DNA of 64,000 bases from an uncultured Chloroflexota bacterium (GTDB lineage Bacteria > Chloroflexota > UBA11872 > VXNJ01), in the NCBI GenBank assembly GCA_913043205.1, contig CAJWLF010000013.1, forward strand, positions 4,787 to 68,786, read 5' to 3'. The notes under the pieces were generated by a model. It ran no database searches and was not told where the DNA came from. It saw only the letters and a list, made by a program, of their open reading frames with translations. A program made the translations under genes and the position numbers. Shown piece after piece: positions 35,743 to 63,016 of this stretch; the stretch's first letter is position 1; each line of letters begins with the position of its first letter.

Positions 35743-37158
35743 GTGAAAATGTACGTGGGAACAAAATGGATCGACACAGATCAAAAAATCGAAGTGTTGT
35801 CACCCTGGGACGGATCCCTATACGACACTGTCCCATCAGCCAGCACTCAAGACGTCGAAACTGCTCTTGCAACGGCCGAGATTGGCGCCAAAAAAATGGC
35901 GGCTCTCACCGGGTTTGAGCGTTATCAAATATTGCATCGAGCAGCTGACATGATAGTCGAAAAACGGGAAGATTTGGCCCAGACGATTACTCATGAAATG
36001 GGTAAAATCATTACCGAAGCTCGAGTGGAAGTTGAGAGAGCAGCAGAAATAATCTACTTGTCAGCTGAAGAAGCTAAACGCCTGGGCAGCGAAGTAATAC
36101 CATTGGATGGGGGACCGGGCGTAACCCACGACAAATTCGGTTTCACAATTCGGGTACCATGTGGAGTTGTTCTCGCCATAACCCCATTCAATTTTCCACT
36201 TCACCTAGTATGCCACAAAGTTGGTCCGGCATTAGCAGCTGGCAATGCTGTTATTTCCAAGCCGACATCGGATACGCCTATAGTCGCACTAAGACTTTGC
36301 GAAATAATGCTCGAGGCAGGAGTGCCGTCCGAAGCAATACAGTGCATCACAGGAAGCGGATCTACAGTTGGTAATGCTCTAGCAGCAGATCCACGAGTGC
36401 GGAAAATATCTTTCACTGGTAGCCGTGAGGTTGGAGAAGCGATCTGTAGAACCGCTGGACTCAAAAAAGTCACTATGGAACTAGGATCGAACGCGCCTGT
36501 CATAATTATGCCGGACGCAGACATGAACAAGGTTCACACCGCGTTGTTATCCACCGCATATGCTAACGCTGGCCAAGTCTGCATTTCCACACAGCGTATT
36601 TACGCCGACTCCACTGTATATGACGATTTCATAGATTCGTTCAGTGAAAGAGTAGGAAAACTTTCATACGGTGACCCGCGCGATGAGAACGTGCAAATGG
36701 GGCCCTTGGTTAGAGAGAGCGATGCTGTACGTGTAGAAGAATGGATTAATAGCGCTATCAACGATGGCGCCAAGCTTGTTACCGGCGGAAGCCGCAATGG
36801 CGCATTCGTAGAACCTACATTGCTAGCTAATGTCGACAAGAGCATGCGCGTAAGCTGCGATGAATTATTCGGTCCTGCAGCCGGCGTGTCCAAAGTCGAT
36901 AACATCGAAGAGGCAATCGCCTTAGCTAACGATACAAATTACGGTCTAAGTGCAGCAATATTTACGGAGAGCCTTGATTCAGCAATGAAATTTGCTCGCC
37001 AAGTCGATTCAGGTAACCTTCATATCAATTTCGGCACCCAGTGGCGTACTGACTTGATGCCATATGGAGGAGTGAAAGAAAGCGGATTTGGGAAAGAAGG
37101 TCCAAGCTACGCTGTCGAGGAAATGACTGAAACAAAAATGGTTGTAATGCACCTGTAG
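35743..37158 (+). CDS. NAD(P)-dependent aldehyde dehydrogenase
   Basis: The catalytic Cys region is GQVCIST. ELGSNAP is also present. Length is 471 aa. Confidence 0.9.
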   Translation: MKMYVGTKWIDTDQKIEVLSPWDGSLYDTVPSASTQDVETALATAEIGAKKMAALTGFERYQILHRAADMIVEKREDLAQTITHEMGKIITEARVEVERAAEIIYLSAEEAKRLGSEVIPLDGGPGVTHDKFGFTIRVPCGVVLAITPFNFPLHLVCHKVGPALAAGNAVISKPTSDTPIVALRLCEIMLEAGVPSEAIQCITGSGSTVGNALAADPRVRKISFTGSREVGEAICRTAGLKKVTMELGSNAPVIIMPDADMNKVHTALLSTAYANAGQVCISTQRIYADSTVYDDFIDSFSERVGKLSYGDPRDENVQMGPLVRESDAVRVEEWINSAINDGAKLVTGGSRNGAFVEPTLLANVDKSMRVSCDELFGPAAGVSKVDNIEEAIALANDTNYGLSAAIFTESLDSAMKFARQVDSGNLHINFGTQWRTDLMPYGGVKESGFGKEGPSYAVEEMTETKMVVMHL

Positions 37159-38828: not shown

Positions 38829-39236
38829 TCAATTCATTCTTTCCAAAAATAACCCGATCATGCGTCCGAATGCTATGCCAGCGAAAACTGCCACAACAGC
38901 CATTACATTCTGGCCTAAAATATTTCCGGCCGATTGTATCCAATCCGCATTCCGTAACAATCTAGCATTATCAAATGCAAAGCTAGAGAATGTTGTGAAC
39001 CCTCCCATAAATCCCACAAGCAATATCAGCCTGACTTGATCCATATCACCAGACCAATACTCCGATATTGCCCATATAACCCCAAATAAAAAACTTCCCA
39101 CAACATTGACCGCAAGTATTCCCCAGGGAAATCCGGCCCCACTCGAATTATGCATCATGTTAGTTATGACATAACGAGCCACCGTCCCACTCCCACCCGC
39201 AAGAAGAAGCCAAAATATTTTAGAAACTAGTTCCAT
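38829..39236 (-). CDS. crcB: Fluoride ion channel CrcB/Fluc
   Basis: Contains LAGGSGTVARY and GFMGGFTTFSSF, which are CrcB hallmarks. The track ORF begins with a TTG at 39281. The ATG at 39236 (MELVSKIFWLL) is the more plausible start. Confidence 0.8.
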   Translation of the reverse strand: MELVSKIFWLLLAGGSGTVARYVITNMMHNSSGAGFPWGILAVNVVGSFLFGVIWAISEYWSGDMDQVRLILLVGFMGGFTTFSSFAFDNARLLRNADWIQSAGNILGQNVMAVVAVFAGIAFGRMIGLFLERMN

Positions 39237-39270
39237 ATACCAGGCCAGTCGTATGCACAGGTCAAAATCA

Positions 39271-40410
39271 TTACCAAGCAATCACTGATTCGGTATCAGC
39301 GTTGTGCTTGAATTCGTCTGTCAAACAGACGCTATCACCATAATCAAATCCAAGCTCACCCATCTTCCTTAACGCCCTTTGAACAAACACCTGATGATCC
39401 TCTCGGAGATATGGTTCCCAACATATGGCCCACGAATCAAGTTGTTGGTCCATCAAGCTGCCATCATTAGGCCCTACGGCTCGGTTCAATCCCCACTCAA
39501 CCCAATCTACATCATGCTGAAACGAACTAGAACCGGGTACTCCGATTCGACCAGGCCGACCCTTTCCTATTGGATCACCTTGCTCAATTGCTTCACCGTC
39601 CTGAACCATCAAATCTACAACATGGTCGTAGACAATATAATAGAGACCATTGTCCATGTAGATGATCACTTCCCAATCTGTCCAATACTGACCCTCTGGA
39701 TCAATATCGTCCCCATAAAATTGTTGCTCAGTAATTTTGACAGTACCAGATCCAGAGGCAATCAGAACCGTCTCTGGAACCATTTCAAGTAGCAAGTCAG
39801 GATTCTTCTTCCCTCTCACTTCCCACAAGTCTTCACCAAATCCCCCAGCAAAAGCTCCTATCACATAACTGCCCGAATACGATAACCCTCCAAATGACTT
39901 AGTGATTGGATCATAATTTTCTGTGATTTCAAATGGAAATACTAAGGATTGGGTTGGAGGAGGTGGTGTGGTCTTTTTGGAAGGAACCTCCAATTGACTC
40001 AGTGAAACAATCCTAATCAAATTGTTACAAGAAGAATTGCTACAATACTCTAAGCTAACCTTCAGATCGTCCGCTAACAACTCTTGATCATTCAGAGGAA
40101 ATTCAAAGACTGGATCAGTAGAGTATCGCGCACCACTTGTAGTCCAGCGAAGGCTAACGCCTTCAAGATACCCATCGGCTTTGCAGGAAACCCATTTTTG
40201 CACTTTATCGAGCCTACATTTGGCACTAACATCCATATGCTGTACCGCGAATGAATCCGAATCTAATTCAGTCCCATCTTGCGACCTGTCAAACCGATCT
40301 CGCACAATATATGCATTGCTGTCCCCATAACATGAATTTAGCATTGCAATGGAAGCTAGAATGGCTGTGCAACACCAGACCCATGTCAATAATCGATGGA
40401 TGAGCAACAC
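39271..40410 (-). CDS. Hypothetical secreted protein, possibly with a degenerate M23/LytM-like C-terminal region
   Basis: An N-terminal signal peptide is present. The segment YIVYDHVVDLMVQDGEAIEQGDPIGKG resembles the M23 peptidase core, but the HxH motif is not seen. Confidence 0.45.
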   Translation of the reverse strand: MLLIHRLLTWVWCCTAILASIAMLNSCYGDSNAYIVRDRFDRSQDGTELDSDSFAVQHMDVSAKCRLDKVQKWVSCKADGYLEGVSLRWTTSGARYSTDPVFEFPLNDQELLADDLKVSLEYCSNSSCNNLIRIVSLSQLEVPSKKTTPPPPTQSLVFPFEITENYDPITKSFGGLSYSGSYVIGAFAGGFGEDLWEVRGKKNPDLLLEMVPETVLIASGSGTVKITEQQFYGDDIDPEGQYWTDWEVIIYMDNGLYYIVYDHVVDLMVQDGEAIEQGDPIGKGRPGRIGVPGSSSFQHDVDWVEWGLNRAVGPNDGSLMDQQLDSWAICWEPYLREDHQVFVQRALRKMGELGFDYGDSVCLTDEFKHNADTESVIAW

Positions 40411-40413
40411 CCG

Positions 40414-41664
40414 CTACCCAAATCGTTCGGGCTTGGTCATACTCAAGTCGAAGCCAGGTTCTTCGCCAGTAATTAGTCTCGCAACCACCTGCCCTGTTAC
40501 CGGCCCCAATGATAAACCTATCATTGCATGCCCTGCCGCAAAAACTAAATTATTCAAACGCTCACTTCGTCCAAGCAAAGGCAACCCATCAGGGGTACAA
40601 GGTCTGAGCCCCCGCCAAGTTTCTACATGACCCAGAGAATCCACCCCATTTAAATAACGTGCAGCCCCTTTGTTGATTGCATTTAATCTACGTTCATTAA
40701 TCCCTAAATCCATCCCTACCATCTCCAATGTACCCGCCAAACGAAGATTCGGCCCCATGGGTGTCACTGCTACTCGAGATTCGACCAGCAACATAGGAAC
40801 GTTGAATGATTCGACAGGACGAGCGTAGGTGATGCTGTAACCCTTAGCAGGCTGTATAACTGCTCTTAGTCTGAGCATAGCAGCTAATTCAGGAGTCCAT
40901 GCTCCAGAAGCCAAAACCACTTGCTCTGGCATGAAATCTCCCCGGGTTGTTCTAACCTTAATTATTTGGGCATCTTTTGTTTCAAATCCAACGGCTTCAG
41001 CCTCATTAATGAGAGTCACACCTTTGTCAACAGCATGTTGAGCCAACCCGTCGACAAACCTAGCAGGATCAACATGCGCATCGTCGGGATAGTGAATCAC
41101 CCCAGCCAGGCCTTCGCGTAGTTCAGGCACTAGCCTTATGGCCGCCGATCCCAAATGCACCGTACTCGGAATATTAGCTTTTCTCATTAAATCAGCTTCG
41201 TGTAACCCTGATTGCATTCCCTTATCAGAGTCATACACATAGAACAGACCCCGCCGCTCATAATGAGAATCAACTTCCAATTGATCCGACCACTCGGAAA
41301 ATAGGCCCCGACTAGCTAAATGCAAATCCCGCAATAGAGGTACAGCACGGTCTACATGTTCCTGATTGGCAAAAGAACGGAATTTCATCAGCCAGCGAAA
41401 AAGATTTAGATCAATACGAGGCCTTATATAGAAAGGACTTTCCGGATCGAACATCCATTTCAATCCCTCACCCATAACACCAGGAGCAGCCAGCGGCACA
41501 GAATGGCTGGGACAAACCAGCCCAGCATTCCCATAAGACGAGGCAAGCTCGTCACGACCTAAATCTACTACTGTTACATCGCATCCCAGATCGGCGAGGC
41601 AATACGCAGAAGATATCCCCATTATGCCACCACCAATTATTAGCACATCAGTGTTATTACTCAT
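40414..41664 (-). CDS. FAD-dependent oxidoreductase (DadA / D-amino-acid dehydrogenase-like)
   Basis: The N-terminal dinucleotide fold is DVLIIGGGIMGISSAYCLADLG. Length is 416 aa. Confidence 0.85.
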   Translation of the reverse strand: MSNNTDVLIIGGGIMGISSAYCLADLGCDVTVVDLGRDELASSYGNAGLVCPSHSVPLAAPGVMGEGLKWMFDPESPFYIRPRIDLNLFRWLMKFRSFANQEHVDRAVPLLRDLHLASRGLFSEWSDQLEVDSHYERRGLFYVYDSDKGMQSGLHEADLMRKANIPSTVHLGSAAIRLVPELREGLAGVIHYPDDAHVDPARFVDGLAQHAVDKGVTLINEAEAVGFETKDAQIIKVRTTRGDFMPEQVVLASGAWTPELAAMLRLRAVIQPAKGYSITYARPVESFNVPMLLVESRVAVTPMGPNLRLAGTLEMVGMDLGINERRLNAINKGAARYLNGVDSLGHVETWRGLRPCTPDGLPLLGRSERLNNLVFAAGHAMIGLSLGPVTGQVVARLITGEEPGFDLSMTKPERFG

Positions 41665-41718: not shown

Positions 41719-44700
41719 TCAGAACTTCCGCTTTGTTGAGGGATCGTCATAAAGCATCTCGGCATAGGTAGCCACATCTACTTCAAATTCGCCATCATGA
41801 CGTTCCGGTCTTTCGGCAACTACCGTGTCGGTAGTGATAATTGCACAAGCAACACTAACCGCTGCTGCAAGAGCATGCTGGGAAACTAGTAGCGGGTCAA
41901 TTATTCCAGATTCAAACAAGTCTATAAATTTTCCAGTCACGGAATCATACCCATTCCAGAAAGACCCAAAGTCGATACGAGCCAGAATCCCACCAGGGTC
42001 TTCCCCTGCATTAACTACAATCGATTTAAATGGATCGTCGAGCGCTTTCCGCATTGCAGACACTCCAGCACCGACATCGCTCTCTTCCGGCAATTCCGGA
42101 AGAGAGCGGGCCGCGTGTAAATAGGCAGCTCCACCACCAGGCACCACTCCACTTGTCAATGCTGAACGGACTGACTTAACAGCATCATCGGCAAGCTGTA
42201 ACCGTCTCTTGACTTCTAATTGTGTTGCAGCTCCCACGTATATCGTTCCAATTCTCCCAGACAACCGCTGCAACTGTTTTTCAGCTATTTTCGTAGCATT
42301 CGACCTGTCTCTTTCCCGAACTCGTTCCACAATCTGCAGCTTGCGTCTCTCAAGTCCATCTTCCCGATCGGCTCCATTTACAATTACAGCAGATTTCATG
42401 TCGACCACTACGCGCTGTGCTTTCCCTAATACATTGACATCGATAGAGTTCCAGGGACGCCCAATTGCGTCACCAATAACCTGACCTCCCGTCACTGCGG
42501 CAACATCCATCAAAACTTCACTGCCAGACAAATCTAACGAATTGGTTACTACTGGACACACACGCGGACCATCCTGTCGCCAATTAGCTCTCAAAGCTCC
42601 GAGTGTTTCGGTTGGGAAGTCCTCAGCAATTAAAACAACATCAGTAACGATATTTGCGTTGGTAAAAACATCAAACAGTAATGCCAAATCTCTTATCAGT
42701 ACAGAGCCTAAAATCGCAACGATATATGGGGATTCGATGACAGTTTGCGAACGATCAGCATCATCCACAAAGAATGCATCTGTCAAACTTGCCTCGGCCT
42801 GAAATCCATTATTAATTCTTATAGTTGTTTCGACACCTCTACCTTGCCGAACATCTATCGCTCCATCATCTCCAGTATGGTCCACGATCTGTGTCACCGC
42901 AGTAGCGATTTCGGAATCACGAGAAGAAACTCGAGCCACCCTCTCGACTTCTGCCTTACTGGAAATCTCGCGCGCATGCTCTCTCAAATAAGCATCTACA
43001 TAGTTTGCAGCCAATCTAATCCCACTGCCAATTGACATCGGGCTTCTACCGGCAGCAATCTGCATGTCAGCCTCACGAACAATAGCTTGAGCGAGAACCA
43101 TAGCCGTGGTTGTACCGTCACCAGCCATTGACTCTGTATGCAAAGCCGCCTCGCGCAAAAGCTGGGCTCCCAGATCTTCTATAGGGTCAGGTAATTCTAT
43201 TTCTCGAGCAACATCGGCCCCGTCTCTGGTTACTGCCGGACAATAACTTCCTGCTAAACCTCTACGTTCCAGCACCACGCTCATACCGGTCGGCCCATGT
43301 GTAACCTTGACAACATCCGCCAATTTATCTACCCCGCTATGCAGACTCCTACGACCATTGTCACCAAAAAGAATCTCAGTTGTACGACGCTCAGGCTGAG
43401 ATTGGTTTACTTCATTACCCATGCCGGGAATTTCAATATCCTCTATCTTTTCCGTGTGCCGAATGGCAGTCTCAGTGGTGAGTATCGACACAGCCGTACT
43501 GGTAGCACTACGCAGAGAACTAGAGACCACGTCAAGTGGGTCTAAAACACCAGCTTCGAATACATTTACACAACTCCTCGATAGCGCATCAAACCCGTAC
43601 TCGATATCATCTTCAGATTCAATTTTTTCAACAATCAGTTGACCATCTAACCCCGCGTTAATGGCAATTTGCTCAGTGGGCCGCTGAAGCGCTTCCCGCA
43701 CAATACCTACACCAGTAGCCTGATCCCCATGAACATCTAACACATCTAATGCCGATCTAGCCCATAGTAGAGATCGTCCACCACCAGGAAGAACACCATT
43801 GTCATACGCCGCTCGACAGGCAGAAACAGCATTTTCAGTCCTTTGACACAGTTCAGTCCTCTCGGTTCCAGTAGAGGCCGAGACTTCAATGGTGATCATC
43901 TTGCCTGAAAGACGCGTAATACGATTTTTGATCAGATCAGCCTGAGTGTGATTCCTAGTTCGATCAGCTTCAGATTGCATAGCCGATATACGACTGGCAA
44001 TTCGAGCAGGATCACCCTTTGGACCTACAATCAAAAATTCTTTTGGGCCAACCACGACACGCTCTGCCCTTCCGAATACTTCAGAATTTACATTGTCCCA
44101 AGACCGACCAAATTCATCAGACACAAACGTGCCTCCAGTCACTATGGCTAAGTCCTCGCATACTTCGCTACGACTGAGCCCAGCAACTGGGTTGCTTGCA
44201 ATAACTAATTGAAGATTTTCATTCTTGTTTGCCGCAAGAACGTCGGATAATGCAACCTCATCCACAGAATCGCACATAACAAAAACGGACGTCACATCAT
44301 TGTCAACTAATGAATCCAACAAGCGTCTAATTTCACCAAATTCAACTATTCGCCGATCGGTTATAAGTATGTATGGATTGTCTAATTCGGCTTTTCCATA
44401 AACCGTGTTAACGAAGGCTGAAGATACATAGCCTTCGTCCATACTTACCCCAGTAGATCGCCTCAACTGAGACTGCAACCCACGCCCTTCTTCAACCACA
44501 ACACCACCATTTGGCTGTGTTTCAAGAATAGCTTTTGCTGCTAGTTCTCCAAGTACATTGCTATTAGCGGAAACAGTGCCAACCTGAGTAAGCACGTTCT
44601 CATTTCGAGCGTCGACAGATATTCTCTTTAGTTCTTCAAGAACAACACCACTAGCCAACTCAATCCCACGACGCAACATCATGGGATTTGCACCTGCTGC

Positions 44701-45087
44701 TATATTTTTGAGTCCCGCATGCAACATTTCTTGCGCAAGGATGGTTGCAGACGTGGTGCCATCCCCAGCCCACCATGACGCCTCAGACGCTGCCTCAATA
44801 ATCAATTTGGCTCCCATATTTTCGTACTCATCCCGCAAATTAATCGACCGAGCAATAGATATCCCATCATTTGTTATCACGGGACGAAAGGGAGGCGTTT
44901 GCAGCAACACATTCTGGCATAGAGGACCAAGCGTAATTTTTGTTGTGTCAGCAACAGCATCAACTCCTCGCCCCAAGGCAAAACGGGCCTCGGAATCAAA
45001 AATCATTTCAGATTTTGATGAGCGAACCGGCTTAGGGCGAGATGGAGTTCCTGAACTTCCCAGAATGAATGCTTTTGAGTCTTCCAT
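41719..45087 (-). CDS. Tandem-fused double chaperonin: two complete GroEL/Cpn60-family modules in one 1122-aa polypeptide
   Basis: Module 1 spans about aa 28-548. It reads FDSEARFALGRGVDAVADTTKITLGP ... AGDGTTSATILAQEML ... TENAVSACRAAYDNGVLPGGG ... VLDPLDVVSSSLRSATSTAVSILTTETAI. Module 2 spans about aa 571-1095. It reads ILFGDNGRRSLHSGVDKLADVVKVTHGP ... AGDGTTTAMVLAQAIV ... ADDAVKSVRSALTSGVVPGGG ... IIDPLLVSQHALAAAVSVACAIITTDTVV. Each module is colinear with E. coli GroEL over its full length. The linker is about 22 aa with no stop. The true start may alternatively be the ATG at 45006 (MIFDSEAR...). Confidence 0.8.
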   Translation of the reverse strand: MEDSKAFILGSSGTPSRPKPVRSSKSEMIFDSEARFALGRGVDAVADTTKITLGPLCQNVLLQTPPFRPVITNDGISIARSINLRDEYENMGAKLIIEAASEASWWAGDGTTSATILAQEMLHAGLKNIAAGANPMMLRRGIELASGVVLEELKRISVDARNENVLTQVGTVSANSNVLGELAAKAILETQPNGGVVVEEGRGLQSQLRRSTGVSMDEGYVSSAFVNTVYGKAELDNPYILITDRRIVEFGEIRRLLDSLVDNDVTSVFVMCDSVDEVALSDVLAANKNENLQLVIASNPVAGLSRSEVCEDLAIVTGGTFVSDEFGRSWDNVNSEVFGRAERVVVGPKEFLIVGPKGDPARIASRISAMQSEADRTRNHTQADLIKNRITRLSGKMITIEVSASTGTERTELCQRTENAVSACRAAYDNGVLPGGGRSLLWARSALDVLDVHGDQATGVGIVREALQRPTEQIAINAGLDGQLIVEKIESEDDIEYGFDALSRSCVNVFEAGVLDPLDVVSSSLRSATSTAVSILTTETAIRHTEKIEDIEIPGMGNEVNQSQPERRTTEILFGDNGRRSLHSGVDKLADVVKVTHGPTGMSVVLERRGLAGSYCPAVTRDGADVAREIELPDPIEDLGAQLLREAALHTESMAGDGTTTAMVLAQAIVREADMQIAAGRSPMSIGSGIRLAANYVDAYLREHAREISSKAEVERVARVSSRDSEIATAVTQIVDHTGDDGAIDVRQGRGVETTIRINNGFQAEASLTDAFFVDDADRSQTVIESPYIVAILGSVLIRDLALLFDVFTNANIVTDVVLIAEDFPTETLGALRANWRQDGPRVCPVVTNSLDLSGSEVLMDVAAVTGGQVIGDAIGRPWNSIDVNVLGKAQRVVVDMKSAVIVNGADREDGLERRKLQIVERVRERDRSNATKIAEKQLQRLSGRIGTIYVGAATQLEVKRRLQLADDAVKSVRSALTSGVVPGGGAAYLHAARSLPELPEESDVGAGVSAMRKALDDPFKSIVVNAGEDPGGILARIDFGSFWNGYDSVTGKFIDLFESGIIDPLLVSQHALAAAVSVACAIITTDTVVAERPERHDGEFEVDVATYAEMLYDDPSTKRKF

Positions 45088-45276
45088 AACGAAATTTATG
45101 CCATAACATGTGTTGCCATCGCTTAATTATTACCGACATTTCCCAAGACGGTAGAAGATTCTTATTGGATAAGCCCATTGTACGAATATCTGCACATAAT
45201 TATGCATATCGACTAGTATCATCCAATACATGCCAAAACAACGGTCGTTAATCCTCATCCTAGTAGGTATCACACA

Positions 45277-46938
45277 GTGCGCGATCCATCCTTAGAACCC
45301 ATAACAACAAGACGGCTTGGCCGAGCCAAATCCATTTATCACGATATGGACGCCTTACTGCCACTAAAACGAGGTGCAGATTACGTCGCTGATACGATAA
45401 AGCTATCATTAGGACCGACTACAACCACCGTGCTAATCGATAACGTCGGCGAATTACCGATCTCTGCCCAAGATGGAACCTCCATCGCAAATTCGATCAA
45501 AGCACCTAATAGATTAGAAGATATCGGAAGCCATCTTATGCGCGATGGTATCTCGACAATGTCAAAGAATATTAGAGATGGGACCTCCACGGCCGCCACC
45601 CTAGCACAAAGTATCATCGAGCACGGTGTTGCCCAAATTGCAACTGGAACGAATGCCATGATTTTGACCCGAGGGATAGAGGCTGCGTCTAGAGCAGTCG
45701 AACGGGAAATTAGGAGTTTTTCGCAACCAGCAGACACAAGCGACACACTCATATCAGTAGCAACCACTTGCAGCGAAAATGCTGCTCTCGGAGAACGAAT
45801 CGCAGAGATGATTGCTCACTTAGGGCCCGAAGCCAACATAGGTGTTAGGGCTGAGCCTGTAGTTGGAGTGCATCCTTTCTACAGTCCTGGCATGCAAATG
45901 AATCGCGGATGGTATTCACCTCATCTGACAACAAACGAAGAAGGAACCGAAGCAATACTAGAAGACGCATTAGTGTTCATTACTAGCTCAGTCATACATG
46001 GATCTGAAACAATGGGGCTACTGCTTTCGAAACTAGCTAGTTACGAAAGGCCCTTTTTGATTATTGCCGACGACATAGATGAGGCAGCTCTTAAAGTATT
46101 GGTCGTCAACAAAACAAACGGGGCAATAAATGCTTTCGCTATCCAGGCACCTAGTTACGGGGATCATAAACTAGCCATTCTTGAAGATATAGCAGTATTT
46201 ACCGGTGGGAAAGTAGTTAATAACGTTACTATGGCATTATCCAATATTGGCTCCGAATTAGGCGACAATCTAGGATTGGCAACCCGTGTTGTAGCCAATA
46301 GACGCGAATCCGTGATTACTACCGGTGGTGGCAGCGAAGAACAAATAAAATCACGTATGGACCATATTTCAACAGAGCTCGAATCAATCACAGACGAAGA
46401 AGGGAGAGCAATGCTAAGACAGCGTTGGGGAACCCTAGGAAAGGGGGTGGGGCAAATCATTTTCGGTGCCCCTACCGAACCTGAGCGTAGGGAACTTCGC
46501 CGAACCCTTGAAAAAACAATTCAGGTTACAAGAGCAGGGTTGAGAGAAGGAGTTGTGGCAGGTGGAGGAATCGCGTTTCTAACTGCAGCAAATACATTGG
46601 CAACTACTAAATGGGCAGACGATGAGCAAGCGGGAGCAATATGCCTAACAAGTTCGCTAAAAAGACCTACAGAACAGATAGCCATCAATAGCGGACACGC
46701 GGGATCTACAATCATCTCCCAAATATATGATCTTGATCCTGGGTACGGATATGACGCTATTACAGGGAATTATGTAAACATGAAGGAAGCTGGAATAATA
46801 GATGCAACTTCAGTGACTATTCATGCTTTGCGAATTGCATGCAGTATTGCAGTCAATTTATTAAAAACCAACGTGGCTATCCATTACGCGCCGAGTGCAA
46901 AATGGCCAAAAGCCCCGGAGCGCCCTGTCAGCAATTGA
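45277..46938 (+). CDS. Highly divergent GroEL/Cpn60-like protein (553 aa), divergently transcribed from the double chaperonin
   Basis: Contains ADTIKLSLGP ... DGTSTAATLAQSII ... TRAGLREGVVAGGGIAFL ... GIIDATSVTIHALRIACSIAVNLL, colinear with GroEL. The conserved GPKGRN loop is replaced by GPTTTT. The position equivalent to GroEL D398 is K (EKTIQ). Confidence 0.75.
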   Translation: MRDPSLEPITTRRLGRAKSIYHDMDALLPLKRGADYVADTIKLSLGPTTTTVLIDNVGELPISAQDGTSIANSIKAPNRLEDIGSHLMRDGISTMSKNIRDGTSTAATLAQSIIEHGVAQIATGTNAMILTRGIEAASRAVEREIRSFSQPADTSDTLISVATTCSENAALGERIAEMIAHLGPEANIGVRAEPVVGVHPFYSPGMQMNRGWYSPHLTTNEEGTEAILEDALVFITSSVIHGSETMGLLLSKLASYERPFLIIADDIDEAALKVLVVNKTNGAINAFAIQAPSYGDHKLAILEDIAVFTGGKVVNNVTMALSNIGSELGDNLGLATRVVANRRESVITTGGGSEEQIKSRMDHISTELESITDEEGRAMLRQRWGTLGKGVGQIIFGAPTEPERRELRRTLEKTIQVTRAGLREGVVAGGGIAFLTAANTLATTKWADDEQAGAICLTSSLKRPTEQIAINSGHAGSTIISQIYDLDPGYGYDAITGNYVNMKEAGIIDATSVTIHALRIACSIAVNLLKTNVAIHYAPSAKWPKAPERPVSN

Positions 46939-47144
46939 GTAGATTCTTAAACTAAATTCGCAAAGTGTTATCTCCGTATCCTAGAACCAAAACGGTACAT
47001 TCCGATTGGCTAATGGCTAATTTGGTAATTATTCAATTCGAACTGATGAAGACTAATATAGAACTTTTCATTAGAATAATGGTGCAGTCTTAATTATTGA
47101 CATTACACATCGCAACGTGTCGGGCAGTTGTAGTCACTTAAGTC

Positions 47145-49532
47145 ATGTTTCACGAAAGAGAGCAGTTGGTGGCCATAATCGAAAAAGACATCCAAAAGTC
47201 TAGGAACAAAGAAAGGATTTCCAGTCTTCGAAATCGAGCAATAACTTGGGAAGACTCTCCTGTTCGAGGCGAGCGCCTGAGGCTAGTCACTGAATCCTAT
47301 AAGCAAACTGAGGGACAAGGGGTGGCTGTTCGGAGGGCAAAGGCGTTAGCTCACACTTTGACAAATAACGCCATTCAGATTCGCGATGATGAATTGTTTG
47401 CAGGTCTTCCACAGCGCGCCGTTTATGGATCGGATTCACTGCACTTCAATAACCCAAGACACTGGGAAAGTGCTATGGATTACCCAGAGCTGACCGGTGG
47501 TATTTTCCCCGTACATAAAGAAATACCAGAAAACTTACAAGAGCATCTCGACTACTGGCAGGGACAGAAATTAGCTCGAGCAGTAGTCGCGGAAAATATG
47601 ACTCCGGAGATAAAGAAGGCCATGGAGTTCGGTGCGTTGTCAGTATCCGGCTGGGTGCAAGGACATTCGAATGCAGGATTCGACCGAGTGCTCGAATTAG
47701 GCTTAGAAGGAATCAAAGCCGAAGCAGAATCCAAACTTACAGAATTGCAGTCCGCAGATATAGATGAAGGACAAGACTTTTTACAAGGTGTGCTTATAGC
47801 TTGTGAAGGGGTAATCCAGCACGCAAAACGTTATGCCGATTTGGCAAGAGATAATGCAATTTCTGAGCCGGATTCTTCACGAAGAGCAGAATTGCTTCGT
47901 ATTGCTGATACTTGTGATAGAGTCCCGGCTCAACCAGCCAGTAATTTCCACGAAGCCCTTCAGTGCATATGGTTTGTACAGCGAGGGGTAGACATGGAAA
48001 TGGGAGATGCAGCGGCCCTAGCCAATGGATGGGGGAGAGTCGACCAATATTTATACCCCTACTACAGGTCAGACATCGATTCTGGAAACATAACCGACGA
48101 TGAAGTAAGGCTTTTACTGACAGAATTCTACCTGAAATTAAATCGAGCATATCAAGACACACTAATACTGCTCGGTGGACTAACAACAGAAGGGAAAGAT
48201 GGAACTAACGAACTTTCCTACATGTTGATGGAAATTCACAGAGACCAGGGACTTCTTATTGATATCGATGCACGTGTTCACTCTAAAACCCCCTCTGATT
48301 TCGTTCATTTGTGTGCCGAAGTAACACAAAAAAACCTAGGGTTTTCGTTCTTTAATGATGAACCTACCATCGCCGCACTCGAACGTATCGGCATACCAAA
48401 AGAGATTGCCGTTCAATATTCTCCTGTGGGATGCGTTGAAAATATCGTGCCTGGGTATGCCACTCCCACGACGATGGATAATCAAGTCAATGTCGCCAAA
48501 TGTCTGGAACTGGCGTTAAACGACGGTGTCTGCATGCTCACGGGCACTAGAATTGGCCCAGAGACAGGTGATCCAGCTAATTTCAAATCTTTTGACGACG
48601 TATGGGATGCCTTTGTAACTCAGTTAAATTATCTTGTTGATTTGGGTTGCCAGGGCACCAGTATCGTTCAAAAGGGTCAGGCAGGGCGCCTGCCGTTACC
48701 TTTCTATTCATCCACATGGTGGGATCCAATTAGCAAGGCCAAAGATCTTACAGAAGGTGGAGCAAGATATCCCTATTCAGGTTGCAACAATGTTGGTCTC
48801 AGTACTGCTGCCGACAGTCTTACAGCTATCAATAAATTAGTTTTTGAAGAACGTAAAGTCGACTGGCATGAACTGTTAGACGGTCTGAAGACAGATTTTG
48901 CTGGCAAAACAGATTTGCAAAATTCCCTGCTGGATTCCTCTCCAAAATATGGGAACGACAATGACGAAGCTGACCAAATGGCCTGCAAGGTGCATATGGC
49001 ACACTATGCAGCCCTCGAAGATAAAGTGACTGCTTTCGGGGGTCGTTACTTGCTGCTTATATTCAACACTAACCATCTGGTTGTCGTGTCGCATGGTTCT
49101 AGAACTGCTGCAACCCCAGATGGCAGAGGCGCACGTCAACCAGTCGGCATCAGTGTTTCGCCATCAGAAGGCAGAGATGTTTCTGGGCCAAAAGCTGCGA
49201 TGCGATCGATATGCAAGCTAGACCAAACAGCTATACCTGGTGGAGCTTCCTACATAATGGAATTAAACACCAAACACATTAAAAGCCCGAACGGAGATGG
49301 TGTTTCAACGGACCAGTTGGCTGATTTGCTCCAATACTATATCGACTTGGGGGGAATGAATTTGGCAATAAATGTCTTAGACCCTGAATGGATAGAAGAG
49401 GTTATGGATGACCCGACGAATAACCCCAACCTATCGGCACGGCTATACGGATGGAGCCAATACGTAAAGAACCTTGACCCACGATTACAGCAGTTTCTTC
49501 TTGACAGAACTAGACGATCATCGTCGGTTTAA
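47145..49532 (+). CDS. Glycyl radical enzyme of the PFL2 clade (pyruvate formate-lyase-like, glycerol dehydratase / CutC / HypD group)
   Basis: The N-terminal clade motif is GERLRLVTESYKQTEGQGVAVRRAKALAHTL ... DDELFAG. Also present is FHEALQCIWFVQ. The catalytic thiyl loop is YSPVGCVEN, with Cys at aa 430 and the adjacent Glu. The C-terminal glycyl-radical motif is ARLYGWSQY (RxxGWS), with Gly about 30 aa from the end. Length is 795 aa. Confidence 0.8.
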   Translation: MFHEREQLVAIIEKDIQKSRNKERISSLRNRAITWEDSPVRGERLRLVTESYKQTEGQGVAVRRAKALAHTLTNNAIQIRDDELFAGLPQRAVYGSDSLHFNNPRHWESAMDYPELTGGIFPVHKEIPENLQEHLDYWQGQKLARAVVAENMTPEIKKAMEFGALSVSGWVQGHSNAGFDRVLELGLEGIKAEAESKLTELQSADIDEGQDFLQGVLIACEGVIQHAKRYADLARDNAISEPDSSRRAELLRIADTCDRVPAQPASNFHEALQCIWFVQRGVDMEMGDAAALANGWGRVDQYLYPYYRSDIDSGNITDDEVRLLLTEFYLKLNRAYQDTLILLGGLTTEGKDGTNELSYMLMEIHRDQGLLIDIDARVHSKTPSDFVHLCAEVTQKNLGFSFFNDEPTIAALERIGIPKEIAVQYSPVGCVENIVPGYATPTTMDNQVNVAKCLELALNDGVCMLTGTRIGPETGDPANFKSFDDVWDAFVTQLNYLVDLGCQGTSIVQKGQAGRLPLPFYSSTWWDPISKAKDLTEGGARYPYSGCNNVGLSTAADSLTAINKLVFEERKVDWHELLDGLKTDFAGKTDLQNSLLDSSPKYGNDNDEADQMACKVHMAHYAALEDKVTAFGGRYLLLIFNTNHLVVVSHGSRTAATPDGRGARQPVGISVSPSEGRDVSGPKAAMRSICKLDQTAIPGGASYIMELNTKHIKSPNGDGVSTDQLADLLQYYIDLGGMNLAINVLDPEWIEEVMDDPTNNPNLSARLYGWSQYVKNLDPRLQQFLLDRTRRSSSV

Positions 49533-49556
49533 TCCTATCAAGCAAGTTAAGCTTTA

Positions 49557-49973
49557 GTGGTCAATCAGCCGGCTAGGTCCTTATCTCCTGATTCGACGGG
49601 CGACGGAATTTGGCACGATGTTGCCAGCACAGGTGATTTGATCGATGGTAAGTCGATTCTAGTTCAGATAAACAAACAGCCCGTTGTAGTTTGCCTAAGC
49701 CAAGGTCAATATTACGCAATTGGGCATAATTGCCCTCACTATGATGCCCCCATGGTAGAAGGACAATTAGTAGGAAATAAAATTATATGTCCGTGGCACT
49801 GGTGGGAATTCGACCTAGATACCGGACACTGTCTCTATGCACCAACTGAACAAATAACAGAAATGTTTTTTAGCAGTGAATTTATGGGCAATCCTCAAAG
49901 CGTCAAACTTCCTATATACCCTATACGTACAGAAGCTGGCCGCATACTCATCCAATTATCTTCGGAATCATAG
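49557..49973 (+). CDS. Rieske [2Fe-2S] domain protein (NirD-like small Rieske ferredoxin)
   Basis: The Rieske ligands are CPHYDAPMVEG and CPWHWWEF. Length is 138 aa. It starts 24 nt after the GRE stop. Confidence 0.8.
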   Translation: MVNQPARSLSPDSTGDGIWHDVASTGDLIDGKSILVQINKQPVVVCLSQGQYYAIGHNCPHYDAPMVEGQLVGNKIICPWHWWEFDLDTGHCLYAPTEQITEMFFSSEFMGNPQSVKLPIYPIRTEAGRILIQLSSES

Positions 49974-50040: not shown

Positions 50041-50970
50041 TCAGCTGTCCAGCAACTCTGCTTTTTCCAATGCAGACCATACCGTCTCTTGGTCTGATTG
50101 GCTTAAGGGCATTAGTGGTGGCCTAACAACACATCTGTCTACGATGCCCAGCCTATTAAGAGCAGCTTTAATACGGGCTCTACAGTCCCGTGCTGGCGTA
50201 CCGAAAATGACTTGTTCTAATGGTAGCAACCTGTCCCAAATCTGCTGCCCCAACTCATAATCACCAGTTTTTGCCGCATTTAGCATTTTGACTTGTAATT
50301 CAGTAGCCAAAGTGCCAAATCCAATTAAGGCTCCGTCAGCTCCCATCACCAATGATTCATATATAAATGGATCATTGCCTGTTAACAGAGTTATTCTCCG
50401 TGAAGCTGAATTCAAGGCATCTCTGACCGAGATGAATGTCTGCGCATCAAAAGAAGCCTCTTTTAGGCCGATGACCTGAGGTATCTCTACTAAGCCCCCG
50501 AGTATTTCAGCAGACAGAATCACTCCACCGAGAGAAGGGGTCAGATTGAACAAAATCATAGGTATATCAGCATCAGCTATCGCAGAGTGATATGCGTACG
50601 GAAGCTCAAATGGAAGAGGATTTCCCTGATACGCTGGAATAGGAAAAACCAGAACAGCGTCGGCCCCTGCAGACTTTAGATCTCGAGCACGCTGTACAGC
50701 CTCCTCTGTATTTATAGCAAGCAGACCGGATACTATTGGAGTCGAATCTCCTATCGTCAGCTTTACAGTCTCTACAACTGACAGTCTTTCCTCCCACGAC
50801 AGTTGTGGAGCCTCACCGAGTTCTGCGTTTACAGCCACCGCACTAATACCTTGGGGCTCAAGCCATTTCATATATGACTTTAGATTTTCTAGATCCGGCT
50901 TATAGTCCTCAGTCATAGGCAGTATGGTGGCAGGGATTATCCCTTTTATATCGTCACTGGTCAGTGCCAT
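50041..50970 (-). CDS. DapA-family (dihydrodipicolinate synthase / N-acetylneuraminate lyase superfamily) Schiff-base aldolase
   Basis: The Schiff-base Lys context is VIGLKEAS. The protein is a TIM-barrel family member of typical length, 309 aa. Confidence 0.8.
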   Translation of the reverse strand: MALTSDDIKGIIPATILPMTEDYKPDLENLKSYMKWLEPQGISAVAVNAELGEAPQLSWEERLSVVETVKLTIGDSTPIVSGLLAINTEEAVQRARDLKSAGADAVLVFPIPAYQGNPLPFELPYAYHSAIADADIPMILFNLTPSLGGVILSAEILGGLVEIPQVIGLKEASFDAQTFISVRDALNSASRRITLLTGNDPFIYESLVMGADGALIGFGTLATELQVKMLNAAKTGDYELGQQIWDRLLPLEQVIFGTPARDCRARIKAALNRLGIVDRCVVRPPLMPLSQSDQETVWSALEKAELLDS

Positions 50971-60818: not shown

Positions 60819-62018
60819 TCAGGAAGAACGTAATTCCTTCAACATTTCCGACAATGTTTCCACAAAAAAGTATTCTCCCCACATCACACTCTCGTTCACT
60901 CCAAGCCCATTGTTTTCATGATATGTCCCATGCAGCAGAATGCCATCCCAATTAGGATCATCGATCGCGAGAAACCCCTTACCTGTCAGCGTGTCCATGA
61001 TACGAAAAGCAATTTCCTTGTAAGAATCAATTTTGGAATGACTTTGAGTCAATCGCGCAAGCCGCCAAAACCCCCCTGCAGCTATGGCGGCAGCCGAACT
61101 CTCATGCAAATTTGCAGGTGACGGCTCGTCCCAATCGTTCGGTGGGATGCCATGGCCAGGCGTTCGCTCTAGATAAAAGTCTGCACATTGCTCTGCTGTT
61201 GCGAGAAATCTTTCATCGTGAGTAAAAGAATATGCGGTCCCAAATCCATATATGGCCCACGCTTGGCCCCGTGCCCAAGACGAATCGGAACGCCAACCCT
61301 GATGGGTACCTTCTCGCAGAAATTCCCCTGCATCAGAAAATATACCTTCATGCGCGGTGCTACCATCACCTCGAACCAAGTACCTTCGTGTCGTCATACA
61401 ATGCTGCAATGCTATATTTTGCAGATCTTGATCACCATCCTCGGCTGCCGCATAGAAAATGATGCCAACATTCATCATGATGTCGATAAACGTGGAGTTT
61501 TTGCCGATAAATGAAGCTAGATATCTACCGCTTTCCTGAAATCTTAGGGCTTGCGTTCTGCCAGCCTGCAGAACCACTTCTTTGGCCTCATAATCACCTA
61601 AAAGATCAAACCATCGCTTCCAACTCGACCAGAACAAAAAGCCGAGGTCGTGAACGTCACGATCATATTCACGACCGATAATCAATTTTGAGTAATCTAT
61701 AGCCTTGTTTTTCCAAGAGGCATCCTGAGTCATCTCATAAAATAGCCACATCATTCCAGCAGGAAACCCATCACACCAGTTGGTCCAAGAATCTCCCTGA
61801 TGGTCCCATTTCCCCTGTTCTGTATAACAGGGTCTAAGGTTAGGATGTTCATTAGTCAGCTTCAAGACTTGCCGCTGAGCAAAACCTAGAGCTTTTTCAT
61901 ACTGATCAATTCGCAAAACACCCTCCGTCTTGCTCTGAATCCTTGCCGATATAACATGCACTAGTGATGAGCAGACATTATCCATTATCCTCTTTCCAGT
62001 AGATTTATGGCAACACAC
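60819..62018 (-). CDS. Unsaturated glucuronyl / rhamnogalacturonyl hydrolase-type glycoside hydrolase (GH88/GH105 fold)
   Basis: The protein has an (alpha/alpha)6-barrel family pattern with a DGFPAGMMWLF ... WARGQAWAIYG ... WGEYFF tryptophan-rich active-site region. Length is 399 aa. Confidence 0.65.
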   Translation of the reverse strand: MCCHKSTGKRIMDNVCSSLVHVISARIQSKTEGVLRIDQYEKALGFAQRQVLKLTNEHPNLRPCYTEQGKWDHQGDSWTNWCDGFPAGMMWLFYEMTQDASWKNKAIDYSKLIIGREYDRDVHDLGFLFWSSWKRWFDLLGDYEAKEVVLQAGRTQALRFQESGRYLASFIGKNSTFIDIMMNVGIIFYAAAEDGDQDLQNIALQHCMTTRRYLVRGDGSTAHEGIFSDAGEFLREGTHQGWRSDSSWARGQAWAIYGFGTAYSFTHDERFLATAEQCADFYLERTPGHGIPPNDWDEPSPANLHESSAAAIAAGGFWRLARLTQSHSKIDSYKEIAFRIMDTLTGKGFLAIDDPNWDGILLHGTYHENNGLGVNESVMWGEYFFVETLSEMLKELRSS

Positions 62019-63002: not shown

Positions 63003-63016
63003 GAACAGATTCAATA

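What the first reader, a model, noticed from the sequence alone, without database searches (positions are those of the whole stretch)
41719..45087. A single 1122-aa ORF contains two full GroEL/Cpn60 modules fused head-to-tail
Every bacterial group I chaperonin I know of is a single-module polypeptide of about 540-550 aa that assembles into 7-mer rings. Here one uninterrupted reading frame encodes two modules, at about aa 28-548 and aa 571-1095. Each is colinear with GroEL from the N-terminal equatorial segment through the apical domain to the C-terminal equatorial segment. The two are joined by a linker of about 22 aa and carry a short N-terminal extension. No stop codon or intergenic remnant separates the modules, so this does not look like two adjacent genes. 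A covalent dimer of chaperonin subunits would constrain ring stoichiometry, because an odd-membered homo-ring becomes impossible. That recalls the fixed subunit order of eukaryotic CCT hetero-rings. I am not aware of a described bacterial tandem Cpn60 fusion.
Basis: partly seen in the sequence, partly recalled or inferred. Interest (0 to 1): 0.88.

Follow-up and report, generated by a model that had tools for sequence, protein, structure and literature searches.

The report
Natural two-module GroEL fusion protein
An uncultured marine Chloroflexota bacterium encodes a real, conserved protein made of two different GroEL chaperonin units joined head-to-tail. It is always paired with a third, degenerate GroEL gene next door, an arrangement I could not find described and one that may form an unusual mixed-subunit protein-folding machine.

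Summary
An uninterrupted 1122-aa ORF (41719-45087, on the minus strand) contains two full-length, colinear GroEL modules joined by a linker of about 24 aa. It is not an artefact: the identical ORF occurs in at least 11 independently assembled marine contigs. An 88% orthologue has the same length, no indels, and dN/dS 0.15-0.19 in both modules. Homologues at 47-50% identity keep the fusion. The two modules are old paralogues (30% identical). A third paralogue, g3 (45277-46938, +), is divergently transcribed 189 bp away, is found in exactly the same five lineages, and shares the fusion's evolutionary history (r = 0.98). The ATP sites differ: module 2 is intact, module 1 has D398N, and g3 is degenerate. 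No GroES gene is nearby, and a glycyl-radical enzyme follows g3 in every lineage. Among 1.84 billion representative proteins only about five double-Cpn60 clusters exist, in at least two or three separate lineages. No paper or solved structure describing one was found. Three fusions plus one g3 would give seven, as in chloroplast Cpn20/Cpn10, or the modules could sit in opposite rings. The architecture and the client are inferred, not shown.

The parts
41719..45087 (-). Whole fusion ORF: 1122 aa, two GroEL modules in one frame
   Evidence: identical product on at least 11 contigs
45010..45087 (-). N-terminal extension, aa 1-26, predicted disordered
   Evidence: alignment to E. coli GroEL; pLDDT below 50 for residues 1-30
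43444..45009 (-). Module 1 (aa 27-548). The nucleotide loop GDGTTS (aa 108-113, nt 44749-44766) is kept, but the catalytic Asp398 equivalent is Asn (TENAV, aa 417-421, nt 43825-43839).
   Evidence: 447.7 bits to TIGR02348; residue table; coordinates; dN/dS 0.15
43372..43443 (-). Linker, aa 549-572. It is disordered, variable in sequence and fixed in length.
   Evidence: pLDDT below 50 for 539-569; dN/dS 0.32 and in frame; anchor-to-anchor distance of 61 residues in all five marine clusters, against 64 for an E. coli C-tail plus N-terminus; no conserved Met
41803..43371 (-). Module 2 (aa 573-1095). The ATP site is intact: GDGTTT aa 656-661 and Asp398 equivalent in ADDAV aa 966-970. It has a 4-residue insertion in the stem-loop (aa 608-619).
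   Evidence: 390.1 bits to TIGR02348; dN/dS 0.19
41719..41802 (-). C-terminal tail (aa 1096-1122 plus stop). It carries the conserved motif EVDxxTYAxMLxDDPS in place of the GGM repeats.
   Evidence: conserved in P0001-5 and in distant P0098; short helix 1105-1113 in the model
45088..45276 (.). Divergent intergenic region (189 bp) between the fusion and g3. It has no CIRCE operator and contains the palindrome CATAATTATG at 45195-45204.
45277..46938 (+). g3: single-module Cpn60 paralogue (553 aa, GTG start) with a degenerate ATP site (RDGTST in place of GDGTTT; Asp398 equivalent is Lys). It is the obligate genomic partner of the fusion.
   Evidence: five clusters mirroring the five fusion clusters; pairwise identities correlate r = 0.98 with the fusion; dN/dS 0.17
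47145..49532 (+). PFL-like glycyl-radical enzyme (795 aa) downstream of g3. It has the GCVE catalytic motif (aa 429) and a variant glycyl motif RLYGW (aa 766). It is the candidate client (inferred).
   Evidence: an orthologue lies near g3 in L089, L090 and L093
49557..49973 (+). Rieske [2Fe-2S] protein, 24 bp after the GRE
   Evidence: conserved in L090 and L093
59033..60646 (-). g4: a fourth Cpn60 module in the window and the most canonical one. It passes the GroEL equivalog cutoff but has no adjacent groES and no GGM tail.
   Evidence: 604.3 bits against a cutoff of 582.1; residues intact; 53% identity to a Chloroflexota MAG GroEL

Best explanation
The ORF is a genuine gene of an uncultured marine Chloroflexota bacterium. 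It encodes two anciently diverged GroEL paralogues as one polypeptide. SHOWN: the fusion is real, conserved, under purifying selection, and always co-inherited with a third paralogue, g3. SHOWN: the three modules have unequal ATP sites. Module 2 is fully catalytic. Module 1 keeps the nucleotide loop but carries Asn in place of Asp398, a residue important for ATP hydrolysis, so it would probably bind ATP but hydrolyse it slowly. g3 has lost key site residues. The classic hydrophobic GroES/substrate-binding residues of the apical domain are partly replaced in modules 1 and 2. The GGM tails are absent, and no GroES gene is nearby. INFERRED: the fusion and g3 assemble into one specialised mixed-subunit, group-I-derived chaperonin with a fixed neighbour order and a division of labour among subunits. 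The simplest stoichiometry is three fusion chains plus one g3, giving a seven-module ring by analogy with chloroplast Cpn20 plus Cpn10. INFERRED, more weakly: it serves a particular client, most plausibly the 89-kDa glycyl-radical enzyme encoded just after g3. That enzyme is too large for a normal GroEL-GroES cage.
For: Reality of the gene: the identical ORF occurs on at least 11 contigs. The 88% orthologue has no indel over 3369 nt, with dN/dS 0.15 (module 1), 0.19 (module 2) and 0.32 (linker). Double-length homologues extend down to 34% identity. Three co-evolving paralogues: module 1, module 2 and g3 are separate clades with bootstrap 100, 96 and 99.5%, loosely united at 53%. g3-type proteins form exactly five clusters (100, 90, 52, 51, 48%), then drop to 37% or less for generic GroEL; this mirrors the fusion clusters at 100, 88, 50, 48, 47%. 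Fusion and g3 pairwise identities correlate at r = 0.98 with the same topology. g3 is divergently adjacent to the fusion in every locus examined. ATP-site asymmetry is conserved across the five clusters. D398 is described as important for ATP hydrolysis (PMC3814418). No Cpn10 is present in the window or in any fusion locus, against 74 of 80 canonical GroEL loci that have one; no CIRCE was found. Feasibility: seven GroEL subunits covalently linked as a single chain were expressed and studied functionally (PMC3814418). Tandem Cpn20 combines with single Cpn10 into rings of seven domains (PMC5780408). Client: an orthologous GRE lies beside or near g3 in all four divergent lineages. A PFL-fold 80-kDa protein, NrdE, is a known obligate GroE substrate too large to encapsulate (PMC10068320).
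Against: No direct evidence of assembly exists. The AlphaFold monomer gives pTM 0.45, so the relative placement of the modules is unresolved, and multimer modelling was not available. g3 keeps both partners of the GroEL R197-E386 inter-subunit salt bridge while modules 1 and 2 have lost them. That would fit g3-g3 contacts, meaning a separate g3 ring, better than a lone g3 among six fused modules. The high-GC clade of double Cpn60s has no g3-like neighbour and two intact ATP sites, so a fusion can evidently function without a seventh subunit. Shared history of two adjacent genes is expected from linkage alone. The GRE does not share the cassette's history in the window lineage: GRE 90% against fusion 47% when compared with L090. 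The D398N change is absent in the distant marine-clade member P0098. A GroES gene may exist elsewhere in the genome.
Confidence: 0.5

Rival explanations
1. Stacked-ring architecture. Seven fusion chains form a double ring in which all copies of module 1 make one heptameric ring and all copies of module 2 make the other, with the linkers crossing the equatorial plane inside the cavity. This would resemble tandem AAA+ proteins such as NSF, p97 and ClpB, in which the D1 and D2 domains form stacked rings and one ring is often hydrolysis-poor. g3 would then be a separate entity.
For: It keeps 7-fold symmetry without needing g3. It also explains the high-GC clade, which lacks a g3 neighbour. One hydrolysis-impaired module (D398N) and one active module would give two functionally different rings. 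The junction is as long as a full C-tail plus N-terminus, 61 against 64 residues. Both termini lie near the equatorial cavity floor in GroEL (my recollection of the crystal structures, not tested here). g3 keeps both R197 and E386, which is compatible with a homo-oligomeric g3 ring.
Against: It does not explain why g3 is strictly co-distributed and divergently co-located with the fusion. Module 1 has lost the R452 inter-ring residue (E or A), so reciprocal GroEL-type inter-ring salt bridges with module 2 would be incomplete. Seven linkers would have to thread one narrow equatorial opening. No structural test was possible (pTM 0.45).
Confidence: 0.2
2. Even-membered ring. Four fusion chains form eight-module rings of alternating module 1 and module 2, like the alpha/beta thermosome. 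This is the constraint the first reader had in mind. g3 would play another role.
For: It is the direct geometric consequence of a covalent dimer if no single subunit joins. An ancestral group II chaperonin with 16 chains is in the PDB hit list (9rwq). Alternating active and slow ATP sites resemble other alternating ring ATPases (my general knowledge).
Against: Both modules score as group I, not group II: thermosome models give about 80 bits against cutoffs of 400-671. No apical helical-protrusion insertion is seen in the alignments. A change of ring order in a GroEL scaffold is unprecedented as far as I know. The co-inherited g3 is left unexplained.
Confidence: 0.1
3. Not a ring chaperonin. 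The fusion would act as a low-order oligomer, for example a covalent version of the dimers seen for mycobacterial Cpn60s, working as a holdase or assembly factor or in a moonlighting role.
For: Apical GroES/substrate residues and several allosteric salt bridges are eroded. No GroES is nearby. Mycobacterial Cpn60.2 structures, deposited with 2 chains per entry, are among the hits (1sjp, 3rtk). Both modules score below the GroEL equivalog cutoff.
Against: The equatorial elements that build ring contacts are all predicted to be present in both modules: the N- and C-terminal strands and the stem-loop hairpin. The ATP machinery of module 2 is fully conserved under purifying selection. Each module retains all three domains over its full length.
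Confidence: 0.12
4. Artefact or decaying gene. A lost stop codon, a frameshift or assembly error, or a pseudogene formed from two adjacent groEL genes.
For: A rearranged remnant of the gene (only the C-terminal 461 aa of module 2) exists in one population on at least 10 contigs. This shows the locus can decay.
Against: The identical ORF is found in many independent assemblies. The frame is preserved with no indel at dS 0.32, with dN/dS below 0.2. The fusion is conserved down to 47% identity within the clade, with constant junction length. No stop-codon remnant or intergenic-like sequence is present at the junction.
Confidence: 0.02

Closest known systems
Bacterial group I chaperonin GroEL/Cpn60 (E. 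coli GroEL; Thermus thermophilus Cpn60, PDB 4V4O)
   Same: Each module is colinear with GroEL over the whole length. The equatorial, intermediate and apical domains are all present. The model superposes on GroEL chains with target-normalised TM-score up to 0.84 at 38-39% identity. Module 2 has the complete ATP site.
   Different: There are two modules per chain. The modules are only 30% identical to each other and 31-35% to E. coli GroEL. Both score below the GroEL equivalog cutoff. There is no GGM tail, no adjacent groES and no CIRCE. Apical hydrophobic residues are partly replaced, and module 1 has D398N.
Chloroplast chaperonin system: Cpn60 alpha/beta hetero-oligomers and the tandem co-chaperonin Cpn20
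   Same: Rings are built from diverged paralogous subunits. Cpn20 is a natural head-to-tail fusion of two modules of a 7-fold ring component, and it solves the parity problem by combining with a single-module Cpn10 to give seven domains (PMC5780408).
   Different: In chloroplasts the fused component is the lid (Cpn10), not the ATPase ring, and the Cpn60 alpha and beta subunits are separate polypeptides. There is no evolutionary relationship to this fusion beyond the family.
Engineered covalent GroEL rings (seven subunits expressed as one chain; described in the review PMC3814418)
   Same: Head-to-tail linkage of GroEL subunits through the C- and N-termini is compatible with a ring.
   Different: That construct is artificial and made of identical modules, seven per chain. 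The present protein is natural, with two diverged modules.
Eukaryotic CCT/TRiC and archaeal thermosomes (group II chaperonins)
   Same: The concept is shared: paralogous subunits in a fixed order with unequal ATP sites. Unequal ATP use among CCT subunits is my general knowledge.
   Different: This protein is not a member of group II. Group II models score about 75-82 bits per module against cutoffs of 400 or more. There is no built-in lid insertion. In group II the fixed order comes from specific interfaces, not from covalent linkage.
Specialised duplicated GroELs (for example Myxococcus xanthus GroEL1/GroEL2; mycobacterial GroEL1)
   Same: These are extra groEL paralogues with client-specific roles, often without their own groES (PMC3578752).
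   Different: They are separate single-module genes, and no covalent tandem has been reported for them.

Membership tests
Group I chaperonin (GroEL/Cpn60) | Full-length sequence match to GroEL models, colinear from the N-terminal equatorial segment to the C-terminal equatorial segment | tested here: met
   Module 1: profile positions 3-523 of 526, 447.7 bits. Module 2: positions 3-525 of 526, 390.1 bits. Both exceed the NF009487 subfamily cutoff of 352.
Group I chaperonin (GroEL/Cpn60) | Equivalog-level score, meaning an orthologue of housekeeping GroEL (TIGR02348 cutoff 582.1) | tested here: not met
   Each module alone scores 447.7 or 390.1 bits, and g3 scores 387.8. Only g4 (604.3) passes.
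Group I chaperonin (GroEL/Cpn60) | Three-domain GroEL fold | tested here: met
   AlphaFold model with mean pLDDT 75. Foldseek hits to GroEL chains at E = 5.6e-43, target-normalised TM-score 0.77-0.84.
Group I chaperonin (GroEL/Cpn60) | Intact ATP site (GDGTTT loop, D52, D87, D398, GGG 414-416, D495) | tested here: inconclusive
   Module 2 has all of these residues. Module 1 has all except D398, which is N. g3 has G86R, a degenerate 89-91 and D398K/A/T.
Group I chaperonin (GroEL/Cpn60) | Single-module subunit of about 57 kDa | tested here: not met
   1122 aa with two modules in one frame.
Group I chaperonin (GroEL/Cpn60) | Assembly into heptameric double rings | not testable with these tools
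   Only a monomer prediction was possible, and its pTM of 0.45 leaves inter-module geometry unresolved.
Group I chaperonin (GroEL/Cpn60) | Works with a GroES/Cpn10 lid, usually encoded in a groES-groEL operon | tested here: not met
   No Cpn10-like sequence in the 64-kb window or in any fusion locus, whereas 74 of 80 canonical loci have one. The rest of the genome was not available.
Group II chaperonin (thermosome/CCT) | Sequence membership and the apical helical-protrusion lid | tested here: not met
   Thermosome and CCT models give 75-82 bits per module against cutoffs of 400-800, covering only the N-terminal equatorial part. No apical insertion appears in the alignment.
Tandem-module parity solution of the Cpn20 + Cpn10 type (functional analogy only) | A two-module chain plus a co-occurring single-module paralogue that can complete a seven-module ring | tested here: inconclusive
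   Co-occurrence and shared history are met. Actual co-assembly could not be tested.

The most novel reading that the evidence does not exclude
The fusion and g3 form an obligate three-paralogue group I chaperonin that does not use GroES. The neighbour order would be hard-wired by a covalent link, and the subunits would divide the labour: one hydrolysing, one ATP-binding but slow, one inert. This would be an independent bacterial route to the kind of subunit specialisation seen in eukaryotic CCT, dedicated to maturing a large oxygen-sensitive glycyl-radical enzyme in an ocean bacterium.
Probability: 0.25. Interest if true: 0.85.

Novelty: new variant of a known kind. Interest (0 to 1): 0.72.

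Why it matters
GroEL is the textbook homo-oligomeric folding machine. How chaperonin rings evolve specialised, ordered subunits, as in CCT, is usually studied only in eukaryotes and archaea. A natural covalent two-module GroEL with an obligate third paralogue and graded ATP sites offers a simple bacterial system, expressible in E. coli, for three questions. How is ring parity solved? How much ATP hydrolysis does a ring need? Does subunit order matter? The fusion arose more than once: in the marine clade, in the high-GC clade, and probably in P0100. ATP-site degeneration occurred in different modules in different lineages. That makes it a small natural experiment in the evolution of ring ATPases. 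If the link to the glycyl-radical enzyme holds, it would also be a case of a dedicated chaperonin for a client too large for the normal cage.

Tried and rejected
(1) The reference-genome scan with the double-protein alignment chose the universal GDGTTT motif as its pattern and returned only canonical GroELs. One apparent 3.8-kb match (L080, Omnitrophota) is groEL-groES-groEL as three separate genes. (2) The cluster-member lookup gave no taxon names. Taxonomy was instead inferred from the window's CTP synthase, whose named top hits are all Chloroflexota at about 60-62% identity. (3) The Rfam scan of the window found nothing at gathering thresholds. (4) No CIRCE heat-shock operator within 3 mismatches. 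Promoter and terminator scans were below shuffle expectation. No operator is conserved across divergent lineages. (5) I first called L086-88 a simple deletion. The DNA alignment shows an inversion plus loss, so it only shows that the locus can be disrupted. (6) My first GRE comparison used the wrong L089 paralogue. The partial GRE at the edge of that locus is the orthologue. (7) Internal translation start for module 2: rejected, because a Met occurs in the linker only in the window's copy. (8) The AlphaFold monomer could not settle inter-module geometry (pTM 0.45), and coordinates are not exposed by the tool. (9) Several long 'Cpn60' proteins in the census are Cpn60 plus unrelated domains, or partial internal duplications of 625-774 aa that may be assembly chimeras. 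They are not tandem doubles.
Full report
**1. The observation**

The ORF exists as described, but on the minus strand. It starts with ATG at 45087, has its stop at 41719-41721, and encodes 1122 aa. The plus-strand reading is full of stops.

NCBIfam GroEL models hit the protein in two stretches, and Pfam Cpn60_TCP1 hits it as well. Scanned separately, aa 1-560 matches TIGR02348 over profile positions 3-523 of 526 (447.7 bits). Aa 561-1122 matches positions 3-525 of 526 (390.1 bits). Pfam gives 195 and 185 bits.

So there are two complete, colinear GroEL modules.

**2. Artefact or gene?**

Several lines of evidence show a real gene:
- The identical 1122-aa product is encoded on at least 11 contigs from independent JGI, Tara/ENA, Logan and NCBI assemblies, always in the same context.
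- An 88%-identical orthologue (L092) has exactly the same length, with no indel over 3369 nt at dS about 0.32.
- dN/dS against that orthologue is 0.15 for module 1, 0.19 for module 2 and 0.32 for the linker. The neighbouring g3 gives 0.17 and the DAO gene 0.11.
- Double-length homologues continue at 50, 48 and 47% identity (marine clade) and at 33-35% (a high-GC clade).
- The junction has a fixed anchor-to-anchor length of 61 residues in all five marine clusters, although its sequence varies. That is close to the 64 residues of a complete E. coli C-tail plus N-terminus.
- Only the window's own copy has a Met in the linker, so separate translation of module 2 is not a conserved option.

The artefact and pseudogene readings are effectively excluded.

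**3. Rarity**

A profile of the nine doubles was scored against 1.84 billion representative proteins. It gave 11,753 hits at E <= 1e-30. Domain analysis of the long hits found only five that contain two Cpn60 modules:
- P0003: marine clade.
- P0098: a distant marine-clade member, truncated at the N-terminus.
- P0096 and P0097: high-GC clade.
- P0100: a third lineage.

The other long hits are Cpn60 plus unrelated domains, or partial internal duplications. All 50 PDB relatives are single-module chains. Three phrase searches of about 8 million papers found no description of a natural tandem Cpn60. JGI simply labels these proteins 'chaperonin GroEL'.

**4. Organism and setting**

The window is ordinary chromosome, with pyrG, purA, pyrB/C, carAB and many catabolic genes. 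All named top hits to its CTP synthase are Chloroflexota at about 60-62% identity. The host is therefore an uncultured marine Chloroflexota lineage.

The window holds four Cpn60 modules in three genes:
- The fusion.
- g3 (45277-46938, +): 553 aa, divergently transcribed 189 bp from the fusion.
- g4 (59033-60646, -): the only one that passes the GroEL equivalog cutoff, at 604 bits against 582.

There is no Cpn10/GroES in the window or in any fusion-bearing locus, whereas 74 of 80 canonical GroEL loci fetched have one adjacent. No CIRCE operator is present.

**5. Three co-evolving paralogues**

In a neighbour-joining tree with 200 bootstraps, marine module 1, module 2 and g3 are three separate clades (100, 96 and 99.5%). 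They group together only loosely (53%). Modules 1 and 2 are just 30% identical to each other.

The evidence that g3 is the fusion's constant genomic partner:
- g3-type proteins form exactly five 90%-identity clusters (100, 90, 52, 51, 48%). After those there is a sharp drop to generic GroELs at 37% or less. This mirrors the five fusion clusters.
- Across five loci the pairwise identities of the fusion and g3 correlate at r = 0.98, with the same topology.
- g3 is divergently adjacent to the fusion in every locus examined.

**6. Independent origins**

In the high-GC clade the two halves of one protein are 53-62% identical to each other. There is no positional signal linking them to the marine modules (cross-clade identities are 33-36% in all four combinations, and bootstrap for positional pairing is 0). 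That clade has a different conserved context (MauE and glycosyltransferases) and no neighbouring Cpn60.

The explanation is either an independent, younger fusion or homogenisation of the halves by intragenic conversion. P0100 looks like a third lineage, with a much shorter junction of 34 residues.

**7. Functional residues (E. coli numbering)**

| Module | Nucleotide site | Residue 398 | Other changes |
|---|---|---|---|
| Module 2 | Every residue examined is kept (T30, D52, GDGTTT, GGG, D495) | D | Y199L, L234A/T/V, V263R/A, V264A |
| Module 1 | Loop kept (GDGTT[ST]) | N in all five clusters | Y203A, L234R, V264A/E/S |
| g3 | G86R; positions 89-91 degenerate | K, A or T | Keeps more apical hydrophobics, and keeps both R197 and E386 |

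D398 is described as important for ATP hydrolysis (PMC3814418).

None of the three has GGM repeats. Module 2 ends instead in a strongly conserved motif, EVDxxTYAxMLxDDPS, which is retained even in distant P0098.

Both modules of the high-GC clade are intact. In P0100 it is module 2 that is degenerate (GDGAAR, D398H). In P0098, module 1 keeps D398. ATP-site asymmetry has therefore arisen repeatedly, but in different modules.

**8. Structure**

AlphaFold2 with the nine-sequence alignment gives mean pLDDT 75. Residues 1-30, 539-569 and 1093-1122 are predicted disordered. The N- and C-terminal strands and the stem-loop hairpin that build ring contacts in GroEL are present in both modules.

The pTM is only 0.45, so the relative position of the modules is not resolved. 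Foldseek matches GroEL chains at E = 5.6e-43 with target-normalised TM-score up to 0.84.

**9. Genomic association with a glycyl-radical enzyme**

g3 is followed, in the same direction, by a 795-aa PFL-like glycyl-radical enzyme (GRE). It has the GCVE catalytic motif and a variant glycyl motif, RLYGW. A Rieske protein follows 24 bp later.

An orthologous GRE lies next to g3 in L090 and L093. In L089 a LacI gene, a second GRE and an activase are inserted between g3 and the orthologue.

A closely related population (98.8% nucleotide identity) carries a rearranged locus in which only the last 461 aa of module 2 remain.

One caveat weakens this link. The GRE and DHDPS genes of the window are 90-92% identical to those of L090, and nucleotide identity is 85% right up to the GRE start. 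Yet g3 and the fusion are only 50% and 47% identical. Either the chaperonin cassette was swapped or evolved very fast in the window lineage, or the GRE block was exchanged between lineages. The cassette of fusion plus g3 is the unit of inheritance, and the GRE link is positional.

As a precedent, E. coli NrdE (80 kDa, PFL-like fold) is an obligate GroE substrate too large to be encapsulated (PMC10068320).

**10. Mechanism**

My best reading, at about 50% confidence, is that the fusion and g3 build one specialised hetero-oligomeric, group-I-derived chaperonin with a fixed neighbour order and graded ATPase activity. Three fusion chains plus one g3 would give a seven-module ring.

Two precedents make this feasible. 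[quoted passage not shown] Chloroplast Cpn20, a tandem Cpn10, combines with single Cpn10 subunits into rings of seven domains (PMC5780408).

The rival readings are:
- **Stacked rings:** a module-1 ring on a module-2 ring, seven chains in all.
- **Eight-module rings:** alternating modules from four chains.
- **A non-ring holdase.**

Three observations count against the 3+1 model. g3 retains both partners of the R197-E386 salt bridge. The high-GC clade has no g3-like partner. No assembly data exist.

**11. Verdict**

This is a real, conserved and very rare tandem GroEL, which I could not find described anywhere. It comes with an obligate third paralogue and unequal ATP sites. It is a new variant of a known kind of machine. 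The architecture and the client are inferred and can be tested directly by co-expression and cryo-EM.

Noticed in passing
window 59033-60646 (-): A fourth Cpn60 module (g4, 537 aa). It is the only one passing the GroEL equivalog cutoff (604 against 582 bits), with intact ATP and apical residues. It has no adjacent groES and no GGM tail. The upstream ORF 60819-62018 has no family match.
   Followed up: partly
window 47145-49973 (+): The PFL-like glycyl-radical enzyme has a variant glycyl motif (RLYGW rather than RVxG) and is followed by a Rieske [2Fe-2S] protein. No radical-SAM activase occurs among the window ORFs of at least 150 aa. Its best specific model is trans-4-hydroxy-L-proline dehydratase, far below the cutoff (422 bits against 1100). 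A GRE in an open-ocean Chloroflexota bacterium is itself unusual.
   Followed up: partly
window 46939-47144, compared with L090: There is a sharp discontinuity in relatedness. The window's DHDPS and GRE are 92% and 90% identical to those of L090 (85% at nucleotide level up to the GRE start). The adjacent g3 and fusion are only 50% and 47% identical. This points to a recombination breakpoint or cassette replacement in the GRE-g3 intergenic region. It is unresolved.
   Followed up: partly
L086-L088 (7001-8386) compared with L093: A closely related population (98.8% nucleotide identity) carries only the last 461 aa of module 2, with a new out-of-frame N-terminus, next to an inverted Fe-ADH/DHDPS fragment. 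This is a recent inversion plus loss that removed Rieske, GRE, g3 and module 1 from this locus. It is seen on at least 10 contigs.
   Followed up: yes
window 35743-37158, 40414-41664, 50041-50970, 62091-63985: Genes typical of hydroxyproline or D-amino-acid catabolism are scattered around the chaperonin genes: a 4-hydroxyproline epimerase, two DHDPS-family proteins, a DAO-family dehydrogenase and an aldehyde dehydrogenase.
   Followed up: no
window 45195-45204: A perfect 10-bp palindrome, CATAATTATG, lies in the divergent intergenic region between the fusion and g3. It is conserved in the 88% relative L092 but not in the more distant lineages. It may be an operator.
   Followed up: no
window 1-64000: No Rfam family reaches its gathering score anywhere in the 64 kb. 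That means no tRNA and no riboswitch, including no fluoride riboswitch near the crcB gene at 38829-39281.
   Followed up: no
L095 (P0100) and P0098: Other tandem Cpn60 lineages show different specialisation. In P0100, module 2 is degenerate (GDGAAR, D398H) and the junction is only 34 residues. In P0098, module 1 keeps D398 but module 2 has GGG changed to GGA. Both proteins are truncated at contig ends.
   Followed up: partly
L005 and L094 (high-GC clade): In the high-GC clade the double Cpn60 directly follows MauE or CopC/CopD genes and a run of glycosyltransferases. This is a conserved context quite unlike the marine one, and it suggests a different role.
   Followed up: no
L080 8007-11891: A Candidatus Omnitrophota MAG has groEL (552 aa), groES (96 aa) and groEL (540 aa) in a row as separate genes. 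This is a possible precursor arrangement for tandem fusions.
   Followed up: partly
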